From: Tortispora ganteri
Lineage: Eukaryota
Length of the DNA: 64,000 bases
Assembly: GCA_003707115.1 (NCBI GenBank)
Contig: PPNB01000001.1
Span: forward strand, 310,001-374,000
Direction of reading: 5' to 3'
In this document: one piece after another, positions 17,673 to 64,000 of the stretch
Layout of the letters: each line of letters starts with the position of its first letter
How positions within the stretch are numbered: the first letter of the stretch is position 1
Translations under genes and position numbers: made by a program
Notes under the pieces: model-generated
The model's input: only the letters and a program-made list of their open reading frames with translations
Told to the model about the DNA's origin: nothing
Database searches by the model: none

Positions 17673-19199
17673 CTATTTTTCTTCTAAGGTACCACCGCTA
17701 CCTTCCCATTTAGGTGTACCAATTTTAGCTCTGATAGTTGGTCCAAAGTAATGAATCAGAGAAAATCCAATCAAACATGGGAAGAAAGTAAGCATAGCTT
17801 GGATACCAAATGACCAACCATATCCGTTAGTGTCGACCCAGTCAGACGTAAACCAAGGACTGCAGAAAGCAGAGAAATTTAGCAGAACAGAATAGAATGT
17901 AATGACGTCCATGAAGTGATCAGGGAAGCAGTCGACAGCGTAGGCTGATATTGCAGCATTGCCCATTTGAATACCCCACCCAACCAAGAAGCTGGAAAAC
18001 TGTGCCCACATCCAGTGCCAATTACCTTCAGCCATGGCACCGAAGAGAGCTAGTCCAACTGCTGTGAGAATAACACCCGGGTACATAAGCCATAAGCGAG
18101 GTTCCGGAGTGCGAGGTAAACCACGTCTGACACGTTTATTCATAATGTAATCAGATAAAGTACCAGAACACAAAATTTCAGCTGCCAAAGTGCCAATTGC
18201 AAGTCCTAAAAACATAAGACCTTGGATACCAGCAGAATCATCAACAAAAATTGCGGGTATCATCGTGATAACGCAAATCATCCACCAATAACAGAAGAAG
18301 CAGAACAGGAACACAGGGAAGGACATTTGGACATAAGGAATGAGACGCAAGAAACGCCATAATGTATCCCACGGTTTCACAGGAGCAATACCGGGAATAA
18401 AAGTGAATGTCAATAGAGGTAGTTGCATAGTTCTTTTTAGTGTGATTTGATCAGGGGAAATGCCGGTATTGAGCTGAGAGACAATTTCTTGTCGTGGGTA
18501 GAGCGTTTCCCGCATGAAGATAAATTCAAGCACCAAAGCAAGTCCAAAAAATATAGCAACAAGCCAAGCGACCCAGGCAGAACCATGTGCAGAGACAAAG
18601 CCACCAATGAGTGGTCCAATGAAACAACCCATATCAATAGCGAGGACCCACAGTCCGACCTTCTGACCCCGCTCGTGCTCGAAGAAAATATCCTGGAGAA
18701 CAGCTAAGCCTATATTACTTGCAGGTGAAACACCAAATCCCATGAAAAAACGGGCAGTCATATAGCCCCCATAGCTATTAGTTGCAGCAGAACCGATGGT
18801 TGCACCAATAGCAATCAATGTGCCCAGTAGAAACACCATTCTGCGTCCAAAAGTTTCTCCCAGAGAGCCCCAGAACAAAGGTCCGACTGCTAAACCAAGA
18901 GCAGGGATAGCGAGAGTCCAGTTGACTTCTGCGTATGTGACATTAAACTGTTCCTGAAGCATAGCGAAAGTAGGAACAGTAGTGGTAGTGATATATGTGA
19001 ACAGAAAGTACATCCACATTACTATACCGAGAAGGACGTACTTTCTCCATCTGGGGAGATTCAAAGGGTCATAGGGGTCAATGGTAGGATGTGGTATGAG
19101 TTCCAAGCCATGTGCAGTCTCACCGCTGAATACCTGACCGATTGCATGGTCTTCTTCGACCTCTGGGTCGACAACGTGCTTTTCAGTATTTTTACTCAT
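17673..19199 (-). CDS. MFS transporter, DHA1/Hol1-like
   Basis: LIPHPT.DP.DPLN.P.WRK leader, GRR motif A, DIFFEHERG, PEPRL, multiple TM helices. Confidence 0.88.
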   Translation of the reverse strand: MSKNTEKHVVDPEVEEDHAIGQVFSGETAHGLELIPHPTIDPYDPLNLPRWRKYVLLGIVMWMYFLFTYITTTTVPTFAMLQEQFNVTYAEVNWTLAIPALGLAVGPLFWGSLGETFGRRMVFLLGTLIAIGATIGSAATNSYGGYMTARFFMGFGVSPASNIGLAVLQDIFFEHERGQKVGLWVLAIDMGCFIGPLIGGFVSAHGSAWVAWLVAIFFGLALVLEFIFMRETLYPRQEIVSQLNTGISPDQITLKRTMQLPLLTFTFIPGIAPVKPWDTLWRFLRLIPYVQMSFPVFLFCFFCYWWMICVITMIPAIFVDDSAGIQGLMFLGLAIGTLAAEILCSGTLSDYIMNKRVRRGLPRTPEPRLWLMYPGVILTAVGLALFGAMAEGNWHWMWAQFSSFLVGWGIQMGNAAISAYAVDCFPDHFMDVITFYSVLLNFSAFCSPWFTSDWVDTNGYGWSFGIQAMLTFFPCLIGFSLIHYFGPTIRAKIGTPKWEGSGGTLEEK

Positions 19200-60389: not shown

Positions 60390-61271
60390 CTAGTTCCTCT
60401 TGTACACATCTCTAGCAGATGCCTGATGGTTAGGGAAGATCAATGCATTAGCAAAGACGATGTTCTCTCTACGCGAAGCAATAAAGACTATGTACTCAGC
60501 AATGTCTCTAGCCACGAGGGGTTCAGCACCCTCATAAACCTTTTTAGCCTTATCCGTATCTCCGCGGAATCGCACGATCGAGAACTCGGTCTCCACCTGA
60601 CCGGGGTCGACTTCCATGACACGGATTCTAGTGTCTATAGATTCTTTGCGCAACGACTCGGTAAATGATCTGATCGCAGCCTTAGTAGCGCAGTAGATGC
60701 TTCCACCAGGATAAGGATCGAGTCCGGCAATTGAACCGAGGTTAATTATATCACCTCGGTTACGAGCTCGCATGCCCTTGATAACAGCCTGAGTGAGGGC
60801 GATGAGACCAATAACATTGGTTGCAAACATAACATCGATATCAGCAGCCTGAATCTCGCCAACCTTCTCGACACCAAATACCATTCCGGCGTTGTTCACC
60901 AGAACATCTACCTCGCTGAACTCCTTGGGAAGGTTTTCGACAAAAGCAGGAATGTCACTGGTTTTGGTCATATCAAGAGCGCCAGTATGCACCTGAATAT
61001 TTGGAAATTTTTCCTTTAGTTCACCTCGGAGTTTATCGAGACGATCAACTCGGCGGGCAGTCAAGACCAACTTGATGTTGCCATTGGAGGTAATAGCGAA
61101 TTCTTTAGCAGTGGCCTCGCCAATGCCTGCAGAGGCACCGGTAATAAGCACAGTTTTGCCAGAAAGACGATCAGCAGCAGCAGTGCTAAATGATGACATG
61201 GTTCTGGAAATATTTCTGGTTGTAATAACGTGTGATAGTCTTTGTCGTACAAGTCCGAAAGCCCAGTTCAT
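60390..61271 (-). CDS. NADP-dependent 3-hydroxy acid dehydrogenase SDR (Ymr226c/YdfG-like); second ATG at 61199
   Basis: TGASAGIG, NNAG, YCATK, PGQVETEFS.VRFRGD, PNHQAS. Confidence 0.92.
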   Translation of the reverse strand: MNWAFGLVRQRLSHVITTRNISRTMSSFSTAAADRLSGKTVLITGASAGIGEATAKEFAITSNGNIKLVLTARRVDRLDKLRGELKEKFPNIQVHTGALDMTKTSDIPAFVENLPKEFSEVDVLVNNAGMVFGVEKVGEIQAADIDVMFATNVIGLIALTQAVIKGMRARNRGDIINLGSIAGLDPYPGGSIYCATKAAIRSFTESLRKESIDTRIRVMEVDPGQVETEFSIVRFRGDTDKAKKVYEGAEPLVARDIAEYIVFIASRRENIVFANALIFPNHQASARDVYKRN

Positions 61272-61511
61272 ACACTTAAAGAGCCGGGGCAGTTATCACT
61301 TATGTAGAGTGTTGAGTATTGTTTGATAGCCAATTCTAAGTGAATGGAAATCGGCAATTCTTAGGAACTGATGGTGAACGCAGTCTATTATCCTATAATA
61401 ATAGGCTATTATATATATGCAAGCGATAAGTTTTAAATCGTTAGTGGAAAAGTGGGGATGGTATGCAATAGCGGAACATGTTACCCGGATGTCGAGATCG
61501 TGGGGGCTTTT

Positions 61512-61678
61512 TGTTGGAGAACTACCTGGTTAGGGTAATGTGGCTTAGGGTTTTGAGCACAATGAGAGAAACTACGTGTAAGTAGGTGATGTATTAAAAA
61601 GAGGGGAAACCTTAACCTGTAGTACAATCTGAGCTAAAACCCTCTGCTACATTATCCTAACCAGGTAGATCTCCAACA
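61512..61678 (+). repeat. 167-bp LTR-like unit with its own ~47-bp imperfect terminal inverted repeat
   Basis: Starts TGTTGGAGA and ends TCTCCAACA; TATTAAAA inside; immediately followed by the PBS. Confidence 0.75.
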
Positions 61679-61692
61679 GGTTAAAAGCCGAA
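61679..61692 (+). other. Primer-binding site for a tRNA-Lys(UUU) half-molecule
   Basis: GGTTAAAAGCCGAA is the reverse complement of UUCGGCUUUUAACC, the anticodon arm of yeast tRNA-Lys(UUU) as recalled from memory. Confidence 0.7.
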
Positions 61693-61698
61693 ATATCA

Positions 61699-62364
61699 AT
61701 GACTGGAACTCGAGGACGTGGCCGTCGCAACATTCAAAGCGAAGTTTCAACTGGAACAAACAATGACAACATTAATATTTTAGAAGCCTCTAAGGTTTCT
61801 GAAGAAACCTCACGACCTTCTCAACCTATCTTGTTAACTCGTAAAGAAATTAATGATCTGTCCAACAACTCCGAGGAAATAAGGATTCTTGAAAGCATCA
61901 ACGCCGAGAAGTTAGCCAACTCAATAAGAAGCACATTGCAAACTGCTCTTTATGTCATTAAGAAACAATATGTTTTAGATGCTGAATCATATGGCGATGT
62001 CCATTTTCTGCTATCAAACATACTTGGCTGTGCTAATTCAAGCCAACATCCTTTCAAGATTTCCCGTTGGATAAAAGAGGAACCTTACCTGGAAGAACAT
62101 TCAATCATTAGCGCTACTGGCCTAAGACTTCCAAGAAATTGGCGATTTGTTGAACATAATGAAGCCAAATTAGTTCTTCTGGCAATTGTCACTCCAAGCT
62201 CCTTAAGGAAACATGTGAATCTCTTAGCTGGCAATCCTGAATATGCCGCTGAACTAGGCACAATTGGTAACCGTACTGCTCCAACTTTGCGTCAAATCAT
62301 GGAAAAAGTATACATGGACTACATGGATGCTTATGCCACAAGCGGCCAAGCTGCTGATGACTGA
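61699..62364 (+). CDS. Gag/capsid-like ORF of the element (221 aa)
   Basis: ATG 6 nt after the PBS; weak resemblance to copia gag helices (NEAKLVLLAIV..S...HV ... TA....IMEKVY); no zinc knuckle, no pol. Confidence 0.55.
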   Translation: MTGTRGRGRRNIQSEVSTGTNNDNINILEASKVSEETSRPSQPILLTRKEINDLSNNSEEIRILESINAEKLANSIRSTLQTALYVIKKQYVLDAESYGDVHFLLSNILGCANSSQHPFKISRWIKEEPYLEEHSIISATGLRLPRNWRFVEHNEAKLVLLAIVTPSSLRKHVNLLAGNPEYAAELGTIGNRTAPTLRQIMEKVYMDYMDAYATSGQAADD

Positions 62365-62878
62365 CTCAATCAAGCCATAGGCTTTTAGATTGACCACTCT
62401 AATACTTCACCTACTTACACGTAGTTTCTCTCATTGTGCTCAAAACCCTAACTACATTACCCTAACCAGGTAGTTCTCCAACACTTTTTTGCGGGGCAGT
62501 AAAATTCGTATTGGTGATGCAGGATTTGATCAGGAGTGGCTGTAATATTATACTATTGGGCTGGTCATTTGACCATGAATGATTCACATACATTAAGAGT
62601 TGCGGTACGACTCCTGCACCGAGTGTCCTGTGCTTGAACAAAGCGGCACTAAATACATTCAAGTATATGAACGTTTAGATCATATATGCAGATGAATTTA
62701 CATATCGTGAAGGTTGATATACATAAAAAAAATCATGTTGAAACATACCTAAAAAGCTTAAAGAAACGTTCCTGCCGTTAATTCCTGTTAACCCGCTGGG
62801 TGTTTTCTTTGCATACTTTATTGATATCTTCAAGCTCGACCCTACCCAAACTGCTACCCTGATTCTATTCAGGGCACT

Positions 62879-64000
62879 ATGACGTCCAAAAATGTCGTAA
62901 ATAATATGAAAGGTAAGTGTTTAACCCCCACGTACTTATTATTTTATCTTTTTGAGCATCCAAGGTCTAACAAATGCTAGGATTGGTTCAGTTTATCTCA
63001 GATTTGAGAAATTCTCGCGATTCTAGTTATGAGGAGAAGAGAATCAACGCTGAGCTAGCAAACATCCGCTCTAAATTTAAAGACTTATCTTTAAATGGGT
63101 ACCAAAAGAAGAAGTATGTATGTAAATTACTGTATATATATACTCTAGGGTACCCAATTGATTTTGGACATTTCGAGGCGGTGCAATTGCTCGGTTCGCA
63201 AAAGTACAGCGAAAAACAGATAGGATACCTTTTTATTAGCCTGATTCTGAACGAAAAAGACGATCTCACTAATTTGGTTATCAATTCGATAAAGAAAGAT
63301 TTACAAAGTCATCTTGAGGTTTATAATTGTTTGGCTCTGCATTGTGTGGCCAATATCGGCAGTGCCGAAATGGCCGTTGCTCTTTCTGAAGTAGTACAGC
63401 AATTACTCAACTCACATGTGACCAAACCATACGTGCGCAAGAAAGCAGCTCTTGCCCTTCTTAGACTCTACAATAAGGACTCTGCTATATATAAACCGGA
63501 AATGACCCATAGAATCTGTGCAATTTTGCAGGACGAAGACCTTGGCGTGGTTACTGCCGGTTGTTCTCTTATTGCTACAATGGCCGAGTCAAATCCTGTC
63601 GCATTCACAGAGGCCTATAACCCTGCTGTCCAGATTTTGTACGAACTTATAGTGAACGGAGACTGCCCGCACGAATATATCTATTACAATCTACCATCTC
63701 CTTGGCTGTCTGTCAAGCTACTCCAGCTGCTTCAGATCCTGCCCGCACCTGATGATTCTGTGCTCAGTAACAGATTGTCCGAGATTCTGCGCTATGTGTT
63801 TAGTAACTACACTGCAATGTGTTCTAATGTGCAACAAAGCAATGCGCAGAATGCTGTAGTATTTGAAGCCGTCAACCTCGTTATTCACATGAACTCAGAT
63901 CCATCTTTGCTGCATAAGTGTTATCAAACGTTAGGAAACTCTCTCAGTGCCCCTCTAATTAATTTCCAGTACGTTTCCTTGGAGGCAATGGCGTATCTGG
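62879..64000 (+). CDS. APL3: AP-2 adaptor alpha subunit, 5' part; exons 62879-62912 and 62981 onward
   Basis: 68-nt intron; MKG|LVQFISDLRN..EEKRINAELANIRSKFK..GYQKKKYVCKL.YIY.LG. Confidence 0.95.

What the first reader, a model, noticed from the sequence alone, without database searches (positions are those of the whole stretch)
61679..61692. Primer-binding site matching the anticodon arm of tRNA-Lys(UUU)
Seen: GGTTAAAAGCCGAA directly abuts the ...CCAACA end. Known: Ty5 and copia prime from an initiator tRNA-Met fragment (GGTTATG(A/G)GCCC), and Candida Tca2 from a tRNA-Arg fragment. This site has the same geometry but is complementary to tRNA-Lys(UUU) positions ~27-40 (S. cerevisiae sequence from memory). 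Inference: a lineage primed by a cleaved tRNA-Lys half, which I do not recall as described in yeasts.
Basis: partly seen in the sequence, partly recalled or inferred. Interest (0 to 1): 0.75.

Follow-up and report, generated by a model that had tools for sequence, protein, structure and literature searches.

The report
Lysine-tRNA primer site, yeast retrotransposon relic
A decayed copia-type jumping gene in a Tortispora yeast has, right after its terminal repeat, a 14-base site matching the anticodon arm of a lysine tRNA, so its family probably starts DNA copying from a cut tRNA half, a known trick used here with an unusual tRNA.

Summary
GGTTAAAAGCCGAA (61679-61692) directly follows the ...CCAACA end of a 167-nt LTR (61512-61678). 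It occurs letter for letter inside a published S. cerevisiae tK(UUU) antisense probe. It therefore complements nt 27-40 of that mature tRNA, and its first base lies opposite nt 40, the priming position reported for Ty5, copia, 1731 and Osser. It is the longest match to that probe in the 64-kb window.

The site belongs to a 972-bp dead element (61512-62483) flanked by a 5-bp target duplication, CTTTT. The element holds a gag-like ORF with two stop codons. Its 3' end is an inverted copy of LTR nt 1-85, not a direct LTR. Contigs of the same organism hold further, fuller copies. The host is very close to Tortispora caseinolytica.

Two things remain open. The host's own tRNA-Lys(UUU) could not be read, because no genome is held. 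No pol gene was available, so the element cannot be placed in a clade.

The novelty is modest. Anticodon-arm primer sites for tRNA-Lys (FunCo1 clade), Arg, Tyr, Ile, Asp and Asn are already reported in fungal copia elements. This is a new member of a known kind.

The parts
61507..61511 (.). Left copy of the 5-bp target-site duplication, CTTTT
   Evidence: GGGGGCTTTT|TGTTGG on the left and CCAACA|CTTTTTTG on the right.
61512..61678 (+). 5' LTR of 167 nt with TGTTGG...CCAACA termini. It has its own 43-47-nt imperfect terminal inverted repeats (61512-61554 against 61636-61678) and a purine run at 61596-61609.
   Evidence: Loose ends show other copies that also start TGTTGG behind differing flanks.
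61679..61692 (+). Putative primer-binding site, GGTTAAAAGCCGAA, complementary to nt 27-40 of mature tRNA-Lys(UUU) as known from S. cerevisiae
61699..62364 (+). gag-like ORF of 221 aa that ends at TGA 62362-62364. It is 62% identical to residues 1-193 of T. caseinolytica CANCADRAFT_147825 (P0001, 330 aa).
62365..62406 (+). Continuation of the gag-like reading frame past the TGA, with a second stop (TAG, 62386-62388). It still aligns by eye with P0001 residues 194-207, so this is a pseudogene tail.
   Evidence: One search gives the translation; the P0001 sequence is.
62401..62406 (.). TAATAC microhomology at the junction between gag and the inverted LTR fragment
   Evidence: the window and the reverse complement of the LTR share TAATAC here; a 1545-nt contig of other copies follows the window up to 62406 and then runs on with different, coding-like sequence.
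62400..62483 (-). Inverted copy of LTR nt 1-85 (82 of 85 columns identical, 1 gap), forming the right end of the element. As a direct match to the LTR 3' end it is only 86% over 50 nt.
62484..62488 (.). Right copy of the 5-bp target-site duplication, CTTTT

Best explanation
Window 61512-62483 is a dead, truncated copy of a Ty1/copia-like LTR retrotransposon family of a Tortispora yeast. The 14-mer directly after its 5' LTR is the family's minus-strand primer-binding site. It would work as in the hemivirus group (Ty5, copia, 1731, Osser). The element RNA anneals through this site to the anticodon stem-loop (nt 27-40) of mature, spliced tRNA-Lys(UUU). The tRNA is cut in the 3' strand of the anticodon stem. 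The 3'-OH of nt 40 then primes minus-strand strong-stop DNA through U5 and R. What is shown: the adjacency to the LTR, the exact complementarity to the S. cerevisiae tRNA, the nt-40 register, the 5-bp target duplication, and multiple copies in the organism. What is inferred: that the host tRNA has the same arm, that the tRNA is cleaved, and that priming happens. This particular copy probably integrated as, or decayed into, an aberrant molecule. The gag region breaks at a 6-nt microhomology (TAATAC) into an inverted copy of LTR nt 1-85. This fits a plus strand that switched template onto the 5' end of plus-strand DNA (snap-back), giving a DNA whose two ends both carry the integrase-recognised terminus.
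For:: the LTR end CCAACA is followed at once by the 14-mer, and CTTTT lies on both flanks of the 972-bp unit; the 14-mer occurs exactly in a published S. cerevisiae tK(UUU) antisense probe that spans the anticodon loop without an intron, so it matches the mature tRNA; it is the only match of 12 nt or more to that probe in 64 kb, both strands. [quoted passage not shown]: there is no TGG within 20 nt after the LTR, and the longest LTR complement to 61679-61705 is 6 nt, so neither a canonical 3'-end PBS nor Tf1-like self-priming is an alternative; single-copy depth is about 84, while the bin 61676-61722 that holds the site has summed depth 960. A 227-nt contig of depth 249 spans 61665-61893 with 24 differences, and no variant letter was listed between 61591 and 61703. 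A 1545-nt contig of depth 184 carries the gag region on past 62406; the ORF directly after the site has one relative, in T. caseinolytica, as expected for a lineage-specific Gag; fungal copia elements are already reported with anticodon-arm PBSs for Arg, Lys, Tyr, Ile, Asp, Asn and iMet, so changes of primer tRNA are usual.
Against: The host tRNA-Lys(UUU) was never seen. Anticodon stems differ between fungi (recalled), so identity with the S. cerevisiae arm is an assumption, although one supported by the match itself. The pairing is only 14 nt. No pol, PPT or direct 3' LTR is present in this copy, so assignment to the copia superfamily rests on the termini, the 5-bp duplication and the PBS type. 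The ORF has no detectable Gag family: Pfam found nothing significant, HMMER found only P0001, and the structure model was unusable. The table does not list differences close to contig ends and left 90 differences unshown, so variants within the 14-mer in other copies cannot be excluded. X1 and X2 may be the data the window was assembled from, so they are not independent support. The paired stretch would include the modified bases at tRNA positions 34 and 37 (recalled from S. cerevisiae), which may weaken pairing.
Confidence: 0.75

Rival explanations
1. The 14-mer matches tRNA-Lys(UUU) by chance and has no role in priming. The family would use some other primer that is not visible here.
For: The host tRNA was not checked. 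The match is only 14 nt. This copy is dead (stops at 62362 and 62386). A scan of metagenome contigs for CAACA plus the 14-mer gave 4 chance hits, which shows that such strings do occur by chance in very large collections.
Against: The match sits at the single position where a PBS must lie and in the nt-40 register of known half-tRNA elements. By my arithmetic, chance for a fixed position is about 1e-5 or less. It is the longest probe match in the window. No alternative PBS is present.
Confidence: 0.08
2. The site docks the anticodon arm of intact tRNA-Lys(UUU), for tRNA packaging or RNA structure, in the way the A-rich loop of HIV-1 contacts the tRNA-Lys3 anticodon. The real primer would be another molecule.
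For: Contacts between the anticodon and viral RNA, apart from the PBS, are known for HIV-1 (abstracts listed). Cleavage of tRNA-Lys(UUU) after nt 40 has not been shown in any yeast, to my knowledge (recalled).
Against: There is no second PBS-like site. TGG is absent within 20 nt and the best self-complement is only 6 nt. The ATG of the ORF lies 7 nt after the site, leaving no room. The site is in the place and register of the Ty5/copia PBS.
Confidence: 0.08
3. The 972-bp unit is not a retrotransposon but a DNA transposon or foldback element with 85-bp terminal inverted repeats and a 5-bp target duplication. On this reading the 14-mer is incidental.
For: The two ends are inverted copies, 82 of 85 columns identical, and the unit is flanked by CTTTT. 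No reverse transcriptase is in the window.
Against: Other copies do not have the inverted end at this place. A 1545-nt contig (depth 184) runs on past 62406 with sequence that, read by eye, continues the homology to P0001. The junction lies inside the ORF at a microhomology. The left end holds a complete 167-nt unit that ends CCAACA and is followed by a tRNA-complementary site. No transposase domain was found.
Confidence: 0.04

Closest known systems
Ty5 and the hemivirus group of Pseudoviridae (Ty5, copia, 1731, Osser)
   Same: TGTTG...CAACA-type termini, a PBS abutting the 5' LTR that is complementary to a tRNA anticodon stem-loop, and initiation at the 3'-OH of nt 40. The 5-bp target duplication is as in copia-type elements.
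   Different: The tRNA here is Lys(UUU), not initiator Met. The iMet site is called diagnostic of the Ty5 family. The LTR is only 167 nt with long internal inverted ends. The Gag-like protein has no detectable similarity to known Gags. Pol was not seen.
FunCo1 clade of fungal Copia elements (Donnart et al. 2017, PMC5445492)
   Same: The PBS is reported as complementary to an internal region of a tRNA-Lys gene. It is a fungal copia clade, and 2 copies were seen in Lipomyces starkeyi, an early-branching budding yeast.
   Different: The reported FunCo1 motif, ATTAAGAGTCT, is a different sequence. By my reading its complement has a CUU anticodon. The clade is almost entirely restricted to Pezizomycotina. 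Clade membership needs an RT sequence, which is not available here.
Tca2 (pCal) and related Candida albicans families
   Same: Copia-type elements of a budding yeast whose PBS matches an internal region of a non-initiator tRNA.
   Different: The tRNA is Arg(UCU). None of the seven C. albicans PBS classes listed in that review involves tRNA-Lys.
Copia and non-autonomous Helenus families of rust fungi (Kojima 2024, PMC10886601)
   Same: [quoted passage not shown] They have 5-bp duplications and repeated switches of primer tRNA.
   Different: The hosts are Basidiomycota, and tRNA-Lys is not among the anticodon-loop primers named in the passages I read.

Membership tests
LTR retrotransposon (general) | Two direct long terminal repeats | tested here: not met
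   In this copy the right end is an inverted copy of LTR nt 1-85, not a direct LTR. Whether intact copies have two direct LTRs could not be read (no genome).
LTR retrotransposon (general) | TG...CA termini and a short target-site duplication | tested here: met
   TGTTGG...CCAACA termini and CTTTT on both flanks.
LTR retrotransposon (general) | Polypurine tract directly before the 3' LTR | tested here: not met
   No purine run precedes the right terminal piece. The only runs of 9 or more purines are at 61596-61609 (inside the LTR) and 62073-62082. The 3' part of the element is missing in this copy.
Ty1/copia superfamily (Pseudoviridae) | pol with the order protease, integrase, reverse transcriptase, RNase H | not testable with these tools
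   There is no pol in the window. No genome is held. The 'longer' protein search found no fused Gag-Pol among 3529 candidates.
Ty1/copia superfamily (Pseudoviridae) | 5-bp target-site duplication | tested here: met
   The 5 bp for copia-type families is taken.
Hemivirus-type (half-tRNA-primed) elements | PBS next to the 5' LTR, complementary to a tRNA anticodon stem-loop, with the first PBS base opposite nt 40 | tested here: met
   Met against the S. cerevisiae tRNA-Lys(UUU) sequence implied by the probe. The host tRNA itself was not tested.
Hemivirus-type (half-tRNA-primed) elements | A cleaved tRNA 5' fragment found as primer on strong-stop DNA | not testable with these tools
   This needs particles or cDNA from an active copy.
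Ty5 family | [quoted passage not shown] | tested here: not met
   The loop complement in the site is TTAAAAG, which pairs with a UUU anticodon loop, not CAU.
FunCo1 clade | PBS motif ATTAAGAGTCT | tested here: not met
   The 11 nt after the LTR are GGTTAAAAGCC.
FunCo1 clade | RT/RNase H groups with FunCo1 in a phylogeny | not testable with these tools
   No RT sequence of this family could be obtained.

The most novel reading that the evidence does not exclude
Tortispora yeasts carry a still partly intact copia-type family that primes reverse transcription from a 5' fragment of the elongator tRNA-Lys(UUU) cut after nt 40. That would be the first use of this tRNA as a half-tRNA primer in budding yeasts. 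It could be an isoacceptor switch within, or parallel to, the tRNA-Lys-primed FunCo1 lineage. The copy in this window would also be an integrated snap-back cDNA, inserted by integrase acting on two U3-type ends.
Probability: 0.5. Interest if true: 0.45.

Novelty: new member of a known kind. Interest (0 to 1): 0.3.

Why it matters
It adds an elongator tRNA, Lys(UUU), and an early-branching budding-yeast lineage to the list of half-tRNA-primed copia elements. This supports the view that primer tRNA switches easily while the nt-40 register is kept. How the tRNA half is made is, to my knowledge, unknown even for Ty5 (recalled). A family using a different, heavily modified tRNA would give a second substrate for that question. 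In practice, LTR annotation that looks only for sites complementary to tRNA 3' ends will miss such elements. The inverted-end 972-bp copy with an intact target duplication is a small natural example of an aberrant reverse-transcription product that could still be integrated.

Tried and rejected
- **Whole genome:** not held, so tRNA genes and all LTR copies could not be listed. ARAGORN found 0 tRNA genes in the window.
- **Other copies in the window:** none. blastn of the element gave only its own internal repeats plus 11 hits of 12-15 nt with E of 1.7 or more.
- **Protein searches:** 1 hit among 249 candidates. 0 among 3529 longer candidates. HMMER over 1.84 billion representatives returned only P0001 itself. 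Pfam found nothing significant for either protein.
- **Structure:** AlphaFold2 on the two-sequence alignment gave mean pLDDT 35.9, so no fold search was made. ESM Atlas hits were all under 0.9. A zf-CCHC cluster scored 0.87 and Ty Gag 0.86; these are leads only.
- **Collection scans for CAACA plus the 14-mer:** metagenome contigs gave 4 loci, of which L002 and L004 have the same flanks. I read the flanks of all 4 and the ORFs of L003 only, where the site lies inside a 647-aa ORF. None showed an LTR-like context by eye, so I take them as chance. Viral contigs gave 0. The search for related loci in viral contigs gave 0 of 69 pattern matches confirmed.
- **RNA checks:** Rfam found 0 matches in 61300-62700. 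The RNA fold of 61600-61720 was unremarkable, z 0.86. Tf1-like self-priming is rejected because the best complement is 6 nt.
- **Earlier scan notes:** none.
- **Papers:** Neuveglise et al. 2002 and Ke et al. 1999 are not held. The main survey of yeast LTR primer sites was therefore not read, and a tRNA-Lys half-tRNA site in it cannot be excluded. A text search for the sense strand of the site found no paper.
- **Searches behind the statement that no yeast tRNA-Lys(UUU) half-tRNA PBS is in print:**. These cover the Creative Commons library only. Supplements were not opened.

Full report
**Observation.** The window reads ...GGTAGATCTCCAACA | GGTTAAAAGCCGAA | ATATCA ATG.... A full-text search for the 14-mer found one paper. 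Its oligonucleotide table lists a 35-nt S. cerevisiae 'tK (UUU) probe' that contains the 14-mer exactly (passage read). The probe is antisense to the mature tRNA and runs through the anticodon loop without an intron. In its reverse complement, a 7-nt loop carrying UUU is closed by a 5-bp stem. The 14-mer pairs with the 5' strand of that stem, the whole loop and the first two bases of the 3' strand. That is nt 27-40 when the anticodon is numbered 34-36. Neither flank extends the match. In the whole window, both strands, nothing else matches the probe for 12 nt or more, and the next independent match is 11 nt at 18497.

**Anatomy.** The site belongs to a 972-bp unit, 61512-62483, flanked by a perfect 5-bp duplication, CTTTT.
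- The left 167 nt (61512-61678) begin TGTTGG and end CCAACA. They carry 43-47-nt imperfect inverted repeats at their own two ends.
- Seven nucleotides after the site an ORF of 221 codons starts (61699-62364).
- The right end is not a direct LTR. 62400-62483 is the reverse complement of LTR nt 1-85, with 82 of 85 columns identical. The direct match to the LTR's 3' end is only 86% over 50 nt.
- The ORF has one relative, T. caseinolytica CANCADRAFT_147825 (P0001, 330 aa). Identity is 62% over P0001 residues 1-193.
- Past the TGA at 62362 the frame still follows P0001 residues 194-207 by eye. A second stop, TAG, lies at 62386. The gene is therefore decayed and is cut off at about 62406.
- The window and the reverse-complemented LTR share TAATAC at exactly that point.

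**Host and other copies.** No genome is held and the window has no tRNA gene. The neighbouring dehydrogenase ORF (60390-61271, minus strand) is 96% identical to a T. caseinolytica protein. The host is therefore a Tortispora very close to that species. The gag-like ORF, at only 62%, must belong to a different subfamily from P0001.

Two coded runs of one organism hold the stretch. They may be the data behind the window itself. I laid them at 80% likeness or more, which placed 40 and 39 records, of which 16 pieces were listed.
- Single-copy flanks have depth of about 84.
- The ORF region sums to 250-1000 and the LTR to as much as 1530.
- The bin containing the site (61676-61722) sums to 960.
- A 227-nt contig of depth 249 spans 61665-61893 with 24 differences and 4 gaps.
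- No variant letter is listed between 61591 and 61703. However, the table omits differences near contig ends and left 90 unshown, so this is suggestive only.
- A 1545-nt contig of depth 184 follows the window from 62070 to 62406 and then continues with other sequence. Read by eye, that sequence carries on the P0001 homology.
- Other contigs show LTR starts (TGTTGG...) behind differing flanks.

The family is therefore multi-copy, fuller copies exist, and the inverted right end is peculiar to this copy.

**What the ORF is.** It is called gag-like from its position (first ORF after LTR and PBS), its copy number, its restriction to this lineage and the basic C-terminus of P0001. No family could be assigned.

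[quoted passage not shown] The site here has the same place and register but matches tRNA-Lys(UUU). There is no TGG within 20 nt, and the longest complement to the LTR is 6 nt. A canonical 3'-end PBS and Tf1-type self-priming are therefore not available as alternatives. My best reading is as follows:
1. The family's RNA anneals to the anticodon arm of mature tRNA-Lys(UUU).
2. The tRNA is cut after nt 40.
3. That end primes minus-strand strong-stop DNA.

Complementarity, register and context are shown. The host tRNA sequence, the cleavage and the priming are inferred.

For this copy, the junction at a 6-nt microhomology and the intact duplication around the whole unit fit a plus strand that switched template onto the 5' end of plus-strand DNA and copied U3 nt 85 to 1. 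That would give a short DNA with integrase-competent termini at both ends. Both LTR ends share nearly the same 30 nt. A later genomic rearrangement cannot be excluded.

**Comparison with the known.**
- The iMet anticodon-stem site is called diagnostic of the Ty5 family, so this element fails that test.
[quoted passage not shown] There is no Lys class.
[quoted passage not shown] - Kojima reports anticodon-loop sites for Tyr, Ile, Asp, Asn and iMet in rust-fungus Copia and Helenus families. These match spliced tRNAs, and the elements make 5-bp duplications.

Half-tRNA priming with non-initiator tRNAs, including a tRNA-Lys, is therefore established by sequence analysis in fungi. What is new here is the UUU isoacceptor, the sequence of the site and the host lineage.

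**Verdict.** I file it as a new member of a known kind. The main yeast survey (Neuveglise et al. 2002) and the Ty5 priming paper (Ke et al. 1999) were not held, and no supplements were opened, so an earlier report of the same site cannot be ruled out.

Noticed in passing
window 62400-62483 with 61507-61511 and 62484-62488: The element's right end is an inverted copy of LTR nt 1-85, joined to gag at a TAATAC microhomology, yet the whole 972-bp unit keeps a perfect 5-bp duplication. It looks like an integrated snap-back reverse-transcription product.
   Followed up: partly
window 61512-61554 and 61636-61678: The 167-nt LTR has unusually long (43-47 nt, 87-88%) inverted repeats at its own ends, so U3 and U5 termini are nearly the same for about 30 nt.
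   Followed up: partly
window 61596-61609: There is a purine run, AAAAAGAGGGGAAA, inside the LTR. It begins exactly where the segment that is copied in inverted form at the right end stops. I could not tell whether this is chance or an internal plus-strand priming site.
   Followed up: no
window 62239-62310 compared with P0001 residues 170-171: The window ORF has 24 residues (HVNLLAGNPEYAAELGTIGNRTAP) that P0001 lacks. This is either a real indel between subfamilies or a stretch spliced out of the T. caseinolytica gene model.
   Followed up: no
window 18497-18507: An 11-nt match (minus sense) to the D-arm part of the tK(UUU) probe. About one such match is expected by chance in 64 kb, and ARAGORN finds no tRNA there.
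   Followed up: partly
window 62881-62980: The adaptin-like gene to the right seems to start with a short exon (ATG at about 62881), followed by a GTAAGT...CTAAC...TAG intron before the long ORF from 62974. This was read by eye only.
   Followed up: no
L003 119-2062 (minus strand): The metagenome contig that shares the 19-mer by chance holds a 647-aa ORF that looks like a bacterial transposase. It is unrelated to the finding.
   Followed up: no
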